64,000 bases of DNA, taken from a virus. Position numbers and translations under genes: made by a program. The stretch's first letter is position 1; every line of letters starts with the position of its first letter. Location of the stretch: the IMG/VR virus record IMGVR_UViG_3300045988_124424, positions 1-64,000 of that record; one strand, given 5' to 3'. The notes under the pieces are model-generated. The model was not told the origin of the DNA and did not search any database. It saw only the letters and a program-made list of their open reading frames with translations. Shown here piece after piece: positions 813-959 of this stretch.

Positions 813-891
813 GTGAGAAAAATTTCTTCATTAATTTTCTTATGCTTTAGACAGAATGCTCCCATCTGTGAAGATCGGAGCATTTGCTTTA

Positions 892-936
892 TGGGATTCA
901 TGGTGCAGCAAGTCGGTTCGATTCCGGCGATCTCAC
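892..936 (+). ncRNA. tRNA-like T-arm/acceptor element (tRNA gene, tRNA 3' fragment or minihelix).
   Basis: Canonical T-arm GTCGG-TTCGATT-CCGGC (912-928). The 3' acceptor strand GATCTCA plus C (929-936) pairs with TGGGATT (892-898). I could not fold D or anticodon arms by eye. Confidence 0.4.
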
Positions 937-959
937 ACAACATTAAAATAGGGAAGAAC

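What the first reader, a model, noticed from the sequence alone, without database searches (positions are those of the whole stretch)
885..940. tRNA-like T-arm/acceptor element 1
A perfect tRNA T-arm (G53-TTCGATT-C61 with a 5-bp stem) is followed by a 7-nt acceptor strand plus C. The complementary 5' strand TGGGATT lies only 13 nt upstream, giving a 45-nt minihelix rather than a full cloverleaf. Alternatively GTGAGA at 813-818 pairs with TCTCAC at 931-936, which would enclose 124 nt. This could be a real tRNA that is hard to fold by eye, a tRNA 3' fragment (attP-like) or a tRNA-mimic.
Basis: seen in the sequence. Interest (0 to 1): 0.6.

Follow-up and report, generated by a model that had tools for sequence, protein, structure and literature searches.

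The report
Repeated tRNA-like minihelix in gut phage
The flagged stretch is a real, conserved RNA element that copies only the "top half" of a tRNA (T arm plus acceptor-like stem); it is one of at least two such copies placed between small genes of an abundant ~150-kb human-gut phage, it is neither a tRNA gene nor an integration-site remnant, and its function is still unproven.

Summary
Positions 912-928 form a canonical T arm (GUCGG/UUCGAUU/CCGGC). The next 7 nt (929-935) pair with UGGGAUU (892-898), giving a 45-nt 7+5-bp minihelix. GUGAGA (813-818) is an alternative partner.

It is not a tRNA. ARAGORN finds none in the window, and the best Rfam hit is tRNA-Sec at 17 bits (E=1.4). It is not an attP-like fragment either: the exact 21-mer occurs in no bacterial tRNA among 185,579 genomes.

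It is a conserved structured element. A paralogue (E2) lies at 2125-2171. Both copies occur together in more than 100 related phage contigs. Further paralogues were found outside the window (E0) and in a relative (E3). The T stems, an upstream GNRA hairpin (854-885) and the acceptor-like helix keep pairing through compensatory changes.

The elements sit 22-29 nt upstream of start codons and flank a hypervariable gene cassette. The sister phage csAssE-Sib also encodes Ro60, a YrlA-like RNA, tRNAs, PNK and a CCA-adding-like enzyme.

Most likely mechanism (inferred): a minimal substrate for tRNA-processing enzymes that punctuates and stabilises the transcripts of this gene block. A trans-acting Y-RNA-like or decoy role is the main rival.

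I rate it a new variant of a known kind, of moderate interest.

The parts
892..898 (+). E1, 5' strand of the acceptor-like helix (UGGGAUU, 'b')
   Evidence: Pairs with 929-935 at 7 of 7 positions. 99.6% of cells are paired in 32 distinct E1 sequences. The paralogues E2 and E3 carry GGGGAUG and UGGGACG with matching changes on the 3' strand.
899..911 (+). E1 13-nt linker bulged at the acceptor/T junction (CAUGGUG invariant, then GCAGCAA variable)
   Evidence: Columns 98-103 of alignment A1 are the most variable part of the element, while CAUGGUG never varies. The idea that GG902-903 mimics the D loop is inference only.
912..928 (+). E1 T arm: stem 912-916/924-928, loop UUCGAUU 917-923
   Evidence: 99.4% paired, with U-G to C-G and C-G to U-G changes. 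Across paralogues the stem sequences differ but still pair (GUCGG/CCGGC, CCUGG/CUGGG, UCUGG/CCAGG, AGCGG/CCGCU).
929..936 (+). E1 3' strand of the acceptor-like helix (GAUCUCA, 'c') plus C936 in the discriminator position
   Evidence: In the L063 variant AAUUCCA keeps 6 of 7 pairs with 'b' but introduces an A.C mismatch with 'a'.
854..885 (+). P1: 13-bp hairpin with one C.C mismatch and a GNRA tetraloop (GUGA 868-871; GCGA in most relatives), followed by U-rich UUUGCUUUAU
   Evidence: Three pairs show changes on both sides (A-U/G-C 11 times, U-A/C-G 3 times, C-G/A-U once) and 98.6% of cells are paired. The loop varies as GCGA, GUGA, GAGA and ACGA. This hairpin contains the GTGAAGATCG that the tRNA-Sec model used as an acceptor strand.
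813..818 (+).
   Evidence: Complementary in most relatives. It is absent in 2 E1 variants (L093, L034), and mismatched in L063 (E1) and in E3.
819..853 (+). Highly conserved AU-rich spacer between 'a' and P1
   Evidence: Nearly invariant in 32 distinct sequences apart from a 1-nt indel. Function unknown.
937..959 (+). A-rich tail and leader up to ATG 960 of the next ORF. The first ~14 nt (ACACAACAUUAAAA) are shared with E2 (ACAAACAAUAAAAC)
   Evidence: Homology between relatives breaks just after this tail, where alternative gene cassettes start.
2125..2171 (+). E2, paralogous minihelix: b 2125-2131 (GGGGAUG), linker 2132-2146, T arm 2147-2163 (CCUGG/UUCGAUU/CUGGG), c 2164-2170 (CAUCUCA), C2171
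   Evidence: Covariance model R1 scores it 58.3 bits and E1 51.1 bits, and finds no other site in the window. Most relatives carry a 14-nt extra hairpin in the linker that the window copy lacks.
2033..2124 (+). E2 conserved 5' domain, including the alternative partner GUGAGG 2091-2096 and the motif GGAUAGGCAUG
   Evidence: Almost invariant among relatives. It is replaced by coding sequence in the L013 variant, which keeps the minihelix; the short contig L209 breaks off in the same cassette sequence before reaching E2. Region 2116-2166 gives a weak hit to Deinococcus_Y_RNA (20.4 bits).

Best explanation
What it is (well supported): E1 (892-936, with its upstream hairpin 854-885) and its paralogue E2 (2125-2171) are conserved, non-coding, tRNA-like modules. 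Each reproduces only the coaxial acceptor/T-arm half of a tRNA. Each has a canonical T loop and a 6-7-bp helix abutting the 5-bp T stem. Neither has a D arm or an anticodon arm. Both are transcribed in the same direction as the surrounding small genes of a ~150-kb human-gut phage of the csAssE-Sib lineage.

How it most likely works (inferred, not shown): an acceptor/T-arm minihelix is the minimal substrate of bacterial RNase P and of the 3'-end tRNA machinery (3' trimming, CCA addition, T-loop modification). This rests on established knowledge from model-substrate work recalled from memory. Embedded in a polycistronic transcript, each module would be cut at its 5' side and trimmed at its 3' side. 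That would separate the upstream message, which ends in the stable GNRA hairpin, from the downstream message, which starts 22-29 nt before its start codon. It would also release a small nuclease-resistant tRNA-like RNA. Because the modules are repeated in direct orientation, they also serve as homology anchors between which gene cassettes are exchanged or deleted.
For: Shown:
- Canonical T arm and abutting helix.
- Two copies in the window and no others.
- Both copies present together in most of more than 120 IMG/VR stretches.
- Compensatory changes in P1 (3 pairs changed on both sides), in the T stems and in the acceptor-like helix. Across E1, E2 and E3: U.G, G-C and U-A at one pair; U-A and C-G at another; G-C and A-U at a third. 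The covariation score is 0.218 against 0.185 in shuffles (0 of 500 reach it), and at most 0.086 when the partners are slid.
- The minihelix survives when the 5' domain and the 'a' strand are lost (L013; L093, L034).
- Non-coding: 1-nt indels occur inside E1 among relatives.
- Strictly intergenic, on the same strand as the genes. The helix ends 24 nt (E1) and 22 nt (E2) before the next ATG.
- The E1-E2 distance falls into classes of 504, ~855, ~1190, ~1250 and 2209 nt. Homology breaks at the element borders, and one E1/E2 chimera exists.

Context:
- Further members: E0 about 1 kb upstream of the window start, E3 about 9 kb downstream of E2 in a relative, and an element next to a 38%-identical homologue of ORF 960 in MT836083.1 with a different helix (GGGGCG/CGCCCC).
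- In the crAss-like model phage phi14:2, early intergenic regions give abundant stable non-coding RNAs (preprint 10.1101/2020.03.07.982082). That genome's early region holds a tmRNA and an uncalled T-arm element.
Against: - No transcript ends, cleavage or CCA addition were observed. The mechanism rests on what minihelices are known to be substrates for.
- Position 1-72 is unpaired in E2 (G.A or A.A), and +1 is U in E1. Neither is the typical G1-C72.
- The 3' strand has at least three possible partners (a, b, and GUG-C-AG 903-908), so the folded state in vivo is uncertain. Energy-based folding gives no signal for the minihelix (z about -0.1 to -0.3).
- Covariation in the acceptor-like helix rests on a few sequences from a narrow clade (mean column identity 95% within E1). 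Several changes are transitions opposite G or U, which pairing tolerates easily.
- P1 followed by U-rich sequence could be a terminator, which would put the minihelix on read-through transcripts only.
Confidence: 0.4

Rival explanations
1. Trans-acting small RNA of the phage's RNA toolkit. E1 and E2 would be excised or separately made tRNA-like RNAs that work with phage Ro60 (as Yrn1-type Y RNAs tethering Ro60 to PNPase), or as decoys or sponges for factors that recognise tRNA acceptor/T arms (host toxins or modification enzymes).
For: - The 94-98% identical phage csAssE-Sib encodes a Ro60 orthologue (TROVE domain, 53.7 bits).
- It also encodes a PNK/3'-phosphatase, a DHH phosphoesterase and a CCA-adding/poly(A)-polymerase-like enzyme.
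- E2 2116-2166 is the best, though weak, match to Deinococcus_Y_RNA (20.4 bits, E=0.26 on 351 nt). It aligns a GGG stretch, a small hairpin and the T arm.
- Bacterial Y RNAs do contain tRNA-like domains, and one is cut by RNase P and receives CCA (PMC4201824).
- cr111_1, whose Ro60 is the next closest (52% identity), has an unannotated T-arm RNA about 0.4 kb upstream of the gene.
Against: - In csAssE-Sib, E1 and E2 lie about 75 kb from rsr and on the opposite strand.
- The slot next to rsr is already filled by a textbook YrlA-topology RNA and two tRNAs with pairing flanks.
- No GNCGAAN0-1G motif sits in a terminal stem. The UGCGAAG in the P1 loop is UGUGAAG in the window and behaves as a GNRA loop.
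- The Y-RNA hit is far below the gathering score of 80.
- phi14:2 has a T-arm element but no Ro60 hit among 48 phage records.
- The nucleotidyltransferase gene is missing from the window phage.
Confidence: 0.2
2. Structural switch. The 3' strand UCUCAC alternates between partner 'a' (GUGAGA/GUGAGG, closing the whole domain) and partner 'b' (the minihelix). This would control termination, processing or translation of the downstream ORF.
For: Both partners are conserved in most E1 and E2 copies, and E3 also has an a-like and a b-like partner. The element ends 22-29 nt upstream of the start codon.
Against: 'a' is dispensable in several natural variants. The purine-rich coding strand offers many chance GUGAG-like partners. 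There is no ligand or sensor candidate. The start codon and its leader are not sequestered in either fold.
Confidence: 0.1
3. Primarily a DNA-level element. On this view the repeated modules are recombination anchors that delimit exchangeable gene cassettes, comparable to the promoter/stem-loop repeats (PeSLs) that flank mobile cassettes in T4-type phages. The RNA structure would be secondary.
For: At least five length classes of the E1-E2 interval. Homology breaks at the element borders. There is an E1/E2 chimera with the cassette deleted, and a duplication inside E2 in L068.
Against: Recombination needs sequence identity, not base pairing. It explains neither the compensatory changes in three helices nor the retention of a canonical T loop in paralogues whose stems differ.
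Confidence: 0.12
4. Decaying remnants of phage tRNA genes with no present function.
For: The phage lineage carries tRNA genes (Met, Gln, Arg and Cys about 9 kb upstream; Tyr and Lys near rsr). Some copies are damaged (L016, L063).
Against: The same truncated architecture is kept in at least three paralogues and in more than 100 contigs. Pairing is preserved and flanking non-coding sequence is invariant. Nothing remains of a D arm or an anticodon arm.
Confidence: 0.05
5. A genuine tRNA or tmRNA gene, or an attP-like 3' fragment of a host tRNA.
For: Only the perfect T arm and the adjacent 7-nt strand.
Against: - ARAGORN finds nothing in the window.
- The Rfam tRNA clan gives at most 17 bits.
- There is no tag ORF and there are no pseudoknots.
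- The exact 21-mer is absent from every bacterial tRNA among 185,579 genomes.
- No integrase is annotated in the sister genome.
Confidence: 0.02

Closest known systems
tRNA-like domains of bacterial and phage Y RNAs (YrlA; Deinococcus Yrn1), partners of Ro60/Rsr (Chen et al. 2014, PMC4201824)
   Same: Canonical T arm. tRNA-like fold without a decoding anticodon. Yrn1 also lacks a full D arm. M. smegmatis YrlA is cut by RNase P and receives CCA. The sister phage genome encodes Ro60. There is a weak sequence hit from E2 to the Yrn1 model.
   Different: No long terminal stem and no Ro-binding motif. About 75 kb from rsr and on the other strand. Much smaller (45 nt). Embedded between protein genes. 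The rsr-adjacent slot holds other RNAs that fit the family far better.
Acceptor/T-arm minihelix model substrates of RNase P and the CCA-adding enzyme; natural RNase P-processed phage RNAs (C4 RNA of P1/P7, CI RNA of P4) and RNase P sites in polycistronic operon mRNAs. All recalled from memory, none checked here.
   Same: The same minimal architecture: a 12-bp stacked acceptor plus T stem with a T loop. Phage-encoded. Located inside longer transcripts.
   Different: Those phage RNAs are antisense immunity regulators. Here no target complementarity is known, and no processing has been demonstrated.
tRNA punctuation of mitochondrial transcripts and mascRNA-type tRNA-like 3'-end formation (from memory)
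   Same: tRNA-shaped modules between coding units that are used as cutting signals.
   Different: Those are eukaryotic or organellar systems with full cloverleaves. Here the module is a bare minihelix in a phage.
PeSL mobile regulatory cassettes of T4-type phages (from memory)
   Same: Repeated intergenic promoter/stem-loop modules that flank small variable ORFs in a hyperplastic early region and mediate modular shuffling.
   Different: PeSLs are not tRNA-like. No promoter has been identified in E1 or E2.
tmRNA tRNA-like domain (for example the tmRNA of the crAss-like phage phi14:2, L210 4031-4500)
   Same: Acceptor plus T arm without an anticodon arm. Found in the early region of a gut/marine crAss-like phage.
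   Different: No tag reading frame, no pseudoknots, no G3:U70, and only 45 nt. ARAGORN and Rfam tmRNA models do not match.

Membership tests
tRNA gene | Cloverleaf with D arm and anticodon arm (7-nt loop); called by ARAGORN, or Rfam RF00005 at 29 bits or more | tested here: not met
   ARAGORN finds 0 genes in the window. No tRNA hit reaches gathering. The best clan hit is tRNA-Sec at 17.1 bits, E=1.4. Only 13 nt lie between the 5' strand and the T stem, against 39-45 in the phage's real tRNAs.
tRNA gene | T arm (5-bp stem, G53-C61, loop UUCRANY) stacked on a 7-bp acceptor stem | tested here: met
   912-928 plus 892-898/929-935.
tmRNA | tRNA-like domain plus tag-peptide ORF and pseudoknots; ARAGORN or RF00023 call | tested here: not met
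   No call in the window. As a positive control, the same tools find the phi14:2 tmRNA.
Bacterial Y RNA (YrlA / Yrn1) | tRNA-like module with a canonical T arm | tested here: met
Bacterial Y RNA (YrlA / Yrn1) | Long stem formed by the 5' and 3' ends, carrying the Ro-binding motif GNCGAAN0-1G | tested here: not met
   No such stem or motif flanks E1 or E2. A distal GUUUUG/UAAAAC pairing at E2 shows uncompensated changes. The CGAA in the P1 loop is not conserved.
Bacterial Y RNA (YrlA / Yrn1) | Encoded within ~4 kb of rsr on the same strand | tested here: not met
   In csAssE-Sib, rsr is at 73,091-74,725 (+) and E1/E2 are at about 148.6-149.9 kb (-).
Bacterial Y RNA (YrlA / Yrn1) | Score at or above the Rfam gathering threshold for a Y RNA family | tested here: not met
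   Deinococcus_Y_RNA scores 20.4 bits against a cut-off of 80.
Bacterial Y RNA (YrlA / Yrn1) | Bound by Ro60/Rsr | not testable with these tools
   Needs RIP or CLIP.
attP-type tRNA 3' fragment | Identity to the 3' part of a host tRNA gene, with an integrase nearby | tested here: not met
   The exact 21-mer gives one hit among 185,579 genomes. That hit is a phage contig without a tRNA. No integrase is annotated in OR575929.1.
RNase P / CCA-enzyme minihelix substrate (works-like claim) | Cleavage at the 5' side of the helix and CCA addition at the 3' end | not testable with these tools
   Only the geometry (7+5 bp, T loop, single-stranded 3' extension) could be checked, and it fits.
Cassette-flanking repeats (PeSL-like) | Direct repeats in intergenic regions that border variable small-ORF cassettes | tested here: met
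   Spacing classes of 504, ~855, ~1190, ~1250 and 2209 nt; homology breaks at the element borders; one chimera.
Cassette-flanking repeats (PeSL-like) | Contains an early promoter | tested here: inconclusive
   The sigma-70 scan is no better than shuffles (14 found against 12.8 expected) and no terminator was called. The phage's or host's own promoter type is unknown.

The most novel reading that the evidence does not exclude
E0, E1, E2 and E3 are a previously undescribed class of phage-encoded, anticodon-less 'half-tRNA' RNAs. They would be cut out of the transcripts of this gene block by RNase P and completed with CCA (by the host enzyme or by the phage nucleotidyltransferase). They would then act in trans, either as minimal Y-RNA-like adaptors for the phage Ro60/PNPase machinery or as decoys that soak up host defence factors aimed at tRNA acceptor ends. 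This would link a Ro60/Y-RNA/RNA-repair toolkit to infection by abundant human-gut phages.
Probability: 0.15. Interest if true: 0.8.

Novelty: new variant of a known kind. Interest (0 to 1): 0.55.

Why it matters
tRNA-like structures are a recurrent way for viruses and cells to borrow the tRNA machinery. Here the mimic is reduced to the smallest unit that this machinery recognises. It is repeated at the borders of a hypervariable gene cassette in a phage lineage that appears in hundreds of human-gut assemblies.

If the modules are processing signals, they show how a large phage organises and stabilises its polycistronic transcripts, and how the module's repeats drive cassette shuffling. If they are trans-acting, they add a new RNA partner to a phage-borne Ro60/Y-RNA/CCA-enzyme/PNK toolkit. 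I found no paper describing such a toolkit for crAss-like phages in the searchable literature.

The case also has a practical lesson. tRNA finders and Rfam miss these elements entirely, so such elements may be systematically overlooked in phage genomes.

Tried and rejected
- ARAGORN and Rfam (gathering and E-value modes) on the window and on both elements gave no tRNA, tmRNA or Y-RNA membership.
- The tRNA-Sec alignment (868-936) was rejected. Its 5' strand GTGAAGATCG is the loop and 3' side of hairpin P1, which covaries. GUGA is GCGA in most relatives, which would break the proposed acceptor.
- Protein-coding reading was rejected. An ORF from GTG 813 is open through E1 into ORF 960. However, relatives have 1-nt indels inside E1 and different genes downstream.
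- The RNAalifold structures with the a-c closure are kept only as an alternative.
- A long distal stem around E2 (GUUUUG/UAAAAC), predicted by the minimum-free-energy fold, has uncompensated changes and disrupts the T arm.
- The sigma-70 promoter and terminator scan showed nothing above chance.
- The Ro-binding motif was not found.
- Neighbouring ORFs (355-4526) have no Pfam hits.
- BLASTP of the 2213-aa virion protein against the cr111_1 RNA polymerase showed no similarity. I therefore do not claim a crAss-type virion polymerase from this comparison.
- The paper search for 'csAssE' returned only noise.
- Searches for crAss + Ro60, TROVE or tRNA-like found nothing relevant.
- A scan for variants at position 67 of the 3' strand yielded one family member (A to G, which still pairs with U). 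The other 12 hits were unrelated.
- Similarity of E2's AUCAUAGAGGGGAU to AUCAUAAGAGGGAU in the phi14:2 element, and of E0's UGUUGGUU...AAAUUC to the same element, was noted. I could not establish it as homology.

Full report
**1. The observation**

The sequence is as described.
- Positions 912-928 form a canonical T arm, GUCGG/UUCGAUU/CCGGC, with G53-C61 and one G-U pair.
- The next seven bases, GAUCUCA (929-935), followed by C936, pair with UGGGAUU (892-898) at all seven positions.
- Nothing separates this helix from the T stem. So 892-936 is a 45-nt, 7+5-bp acceptor/T-arm minihelix with a 13-nt bulged linker.
- GUGAGA (813-818) is also complementary to UCUCAC (931-936).

A T arm of this definition is expected 0.26 times per window by chance. 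A T arm with an abutting helix is expected 0.09 times. The window has two of each. The second copy (E2) shares the 23-nt string GGTTCGATTCNNNNNATCTCACA (2150-2172).

**2. What it is not**

- ARAGORN finds no tRNA or tmRNA in the 64 kb.
- The only Rfam family reaching its gathering score is an unrelated HEARO RNA.
- In permissive mode the best hit over E1 is tRNA-Sec at 17 bits (E=1.4). Its alignment takes GTGAAGATCG (868-877) as the acceptor strand. Those bases are the GNRA loop and 3' side of a 13-bp hairpin (854-885) that shows three pairs with changes on both sides in relatives. Most relatives also read GCGA, not GUGA.
- The frame from GTG 813 is open through the element into ORF 960. Relatives nevertheless differ by 1-nt indels inside E1 and carry different genes downstream. 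It is therefore not coding.
- The attP idea fails. The 21-mer spanning the T loop to the 3' strand occurs once among 185,579 bacterial and archaeal genomes. That hit is a 3.9-kb contig which is the phage itself (same small ORF, same E1, no tRNA), binned into a Veillonella MAG.
- No integrase is annotated in the sister genome.

**3. The genome**

The window is 87-99% identical, block by block, to phage csAssE-Sib (OR575929.1; 151 kb, human gut), with mosaic replacements.
- Genes read on the + strand up to about 38 kb. These include small ORFs of unknown function, then helicases, a primase-like protein, a methyltransferase and nucleases.
- Beyond about 38 kb they read on the - strand and include giant virion proteins.
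- E1 and E2 lie at the start of the + block, between annotated small ORFs.

**4. Comparative evidence**

Most carry both elements in the same orientation.

Within E1 (32 distinct sequences):
- P1 is 98.6% paired, with A-U/G-C, U-A/C-G and C-G/A-U exchanges.
- The T stem is 99.4% paired.
- The 892-898/929-935 helix is 99.6% paired.

Further paralogues exist.
- E0 lies about 1 kb upstream of the window start (csAssE-Sib about 507-568, - strand). Its helix is GGUUGU/GCAACC. Its T stem varies as UCCGG/CCGGA, UCUGG/CCAGA and UUCGG/CCGAA.
- E3 lies about 9 kb downstream of E2 in one relative (L039).
- An element with helix GGGGCG/CGCCCC sits beside a 38%-identical homologue of ORF 960 in MT836083.1.

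A covariance model built from E1, E2 and E3 finds only E1 (51 bits) and E2 (58 bits) in the window. It scores E0 marginally (17 bits) and real tRNAs only through their T arms (about 13 bits).

**5. Which 5' partner?**

Most sequences allow both. The informative cases favour b.
- E1, E2 and E3 differ at helix position 7-66 (U.G, G-C, G-C) and at 6-67 (U-A, U-A, C-G).
- One E2 variant has GGAAUG/CAUUC, a G-C to A-U exchange. It has two central mismatches with 'a'.
- In some E2 variants GGAGAUG co-occurs with CAUUUC.
- An E1 variant with three changes in the 3' strand keeps 6 of 7 pairs with 'b' but gains an A.C mismatch with 'a'.
- 'a' is absent from two E1 variants.
- The whole E2 5' domain is replaced by coding sequence in another variant that keeps the minihelix.

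Only b-c gives tRNA geometry, because a-c leaves two mismatched layers before the T stem.

Caveats:
- The clade is narrow.
- Several changes are transitions opposite G or U.
- Free-energy folding does not prefer the minihelix.
- A similar hairpin motif in E2 and in a phi14:2 element (AUCAUA-GAGGG-AUGAU) would compete with b-c.

I therefore treat b-c as the better-supported fold and a-c as a possible alternative state.

**6. Context that bears on function**

Each element ends 22-29 nt before the next start codon, and E1 and E2 share an A-rich tail.

The interval between E1 and E2 comes in at least five length classes. Homology between relatives breaks at the element borders. One contig has an E1/E2 chimera with the cassette deleted.

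csAssE-Sib encodes the following:
- a Ro60 orthologue (TROVE domain);
- immediately upstream of it, an RNA that folds exactly like YrlA (terminal stem, V hairpin, T arm, closed 7-bp acceptor-like stem, D arm; z = -2.6);
- two tRNAs whose flanks pair;
- a PNK/3'-phosphatase, a DHH phosphoesterase and a CCA-adding/poly(A)-polymerase-like enzyme.

The nucleotidyltransferase lies in a 5.7-kb block that the window phage lacks. The Ro60 locus lies about 7.5 kb beyond the window end.

The next closest phage Ro60 (52% identity) is in the crAss-like phage cr111_1. It is again preceded by a tRNA with pairing flanks and by an unannotated T-arm RNA.

In phi14:2, early intergenic regions give abundant, stable non-coding RNAs of unknown function (preprint). 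That genome's early region contains a tmRNA (ARAGORN; Rfam 46 bits) and a further uncalled T-arm element.

**7. Explanation**

Shown: E1 and E2 are conserved, paralogous, non-coding, structured tRNA-like minihelix modules.

Inferred: they act as minimal substrates of the tRNA-maturation machinery. They would cut and cap the polycistronic transcripts of this gene block and release a small stable RNA. Their repetition makes them recombination anchors for cassette exchange.

The main rival is a trans-acting role with the phage Ro60 toolkit or as a decoy. For it: the gene content of the lineage and a weak hit of E2 to the Deinococcus Y RNA model (20 bits). Against it:
- the 75-kb distance and opposite strand;
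- the absence of a Ro-binding stem;
- better Y-RNA candidates next to rsr;
- a T-arm element in phi14:2, which has no Ro60 hit.

A switch between a-c and b-c, a purely DNA-level role, and decaying tRNA relics are less likely, for the reasons given under the rival explanations.

**8. Novelty**

tRNA-like structures, Y-RNA tRNA-like domains and RNase P-processed phage RNAs are known. A bare acceptor/T-arm minihelix repeated at cassette borders in a gut phage is not described in the literature I could search. It also escapes all standard detectors.

I rate it a new variant of a known kind, with moderate interest (0.55). The mechanism needs transcript-end mapping and an RNase P assay.

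Noticed in passing
window 17681-17925 (+), within 17682-18042: A HEARO RNA (Rfam RF02033, 95.4 bits, full length) lies in a 360-nt insertion that csAssE-Sib lacks at the same place. The next ORF (18218-19531) has no HNH or IscB Pfam hit, so this looks like an ORF-less HEARO copy.
   Followed up: partly
L123 22588-23090 (csAssE-Sib 72.6-73.1 kb, +), outside the window: Directly upstream of a phage Ro60 gene (TROVE domain) lies an RNA that folds as a textbook YrlA: terminal stem, V hairpin, T arm ACAGG/UUCGAGU/CCUGU, closed 7-bp acceptor-like stem and D arm GAUC-AGUUGGUA-GAUU. Two annotated tRNAs (Tyr, Lys) follow, and their conserved flanks pair into long stems. I found no paper on Ro60 or Y RNAs in this phage group.
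   Followed up: partly
L122 about 507-568 (-), roughly 1 kb upstream of the window start: A third family member, E0: GGUUGU-(32 nt containing GGAUAGGAAUG)-UCCGG/UUCGAUU/CCGGA-GCAACC. It is present in about 40 loci, with compensatory T-stem variants.
   Followed up: partly
L039 10972-11039 (+): A fourth paralogue, E3: UGGGACG...AGCGG/UUCGAUU/CCGCU-C-CGUCCCA. It scores 54 bits with model R1 and lies about 9 kb downstream of E2 in a 173-kb relative.
   Followed up: partly
window 937-2124 and the matching stretch of loci L002-L121: The segment between E1 and E2 is a hypervariable cassette slot, with spacings of 504, ~855, ~1190, ~1250 and 2209 nt. One contig (L102) carries an E1/E2 chimera with the cassette deleted, and L068 has a 22-nt duplication inside E2.
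   Followed up: partly
L208 37063-37725 (-) (csAssE-Sib): A 220-aa protein is annotated as poly(A) polymerase / CCA-adding nucleotidyltransferase. The window phage lacks it, because window 11375-11987 replaces about 5.7 kb of csAssE-Sib. A PNK/3'-phosphatase and an NrnA-like phosphoesterase lie a few kb upstream of E0.
   Followed up: partly
L205 28556-28640 (-) and 28650-29180 (-) (cr111_1, NC_055880.1): An unannotated T-arm RNA (GUCUGU.../ACAGAC, followed by an intrinsic terminator) and about 0.6 kb of further non-coding sequence sit between a tRNA-Gln with pairing flanks and the Ro60 homologue gp079.
   Followed up: partly
L210 4031-4500 (+) and about 1773-1850 (+) (Cellulophaga phage phi14:2): ARAGORN calls a tmRNA (tag GSSVQKLAMVA; Rfam tmRNA 46 bits against a cut-off of 47). 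It lies in the gene-free stretch upstream of g006 that, by my reading, corresponds to one of the abundant early 'long non-coding RNAs' reported for this phage. A second, uncalled T-arm element lies in the g002-g003 gap, just after a terminator hairpin.
   Followed up: partly
L209 (NZ_DXLG01000138.1) and window 715-722: The only bacterial-genome match to E1 is a phage contig binned into a Veillonella MAG. Strong Shine-Dalgarno sequences (AAAGGAGG) precede several small ORFs. Both hint that the host may be a Bacillota member rather than Bacteroidota. This is a weak lead.
   Followed up: no
window 36872-37795 (+): An IS1595-family DDE transposase ORF (Pfam 144.8 bits) lies at the point where gene orientation switches from the + strand to the - strand.
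   Followed up: no
window 25858-27558 (+): A 566-aa SPFH/Band 7 plus flotillin-domain protein is encoded among the replication genes.
   Followed up: no
L214 about 5480-5600 (-) (IMGVR_UViG_2634166549_000001): An unrelated 40-kb viral contig has GUGAGAGG...GAAGG/UUCGAUU/CCUUC-CCUCUCAC-CA. The 8-bp closing helix starts with the same CGUAAGUGAGA as E1's 'a' strand. ARAGORN does not call it as a tRNA.
   Followed up: no
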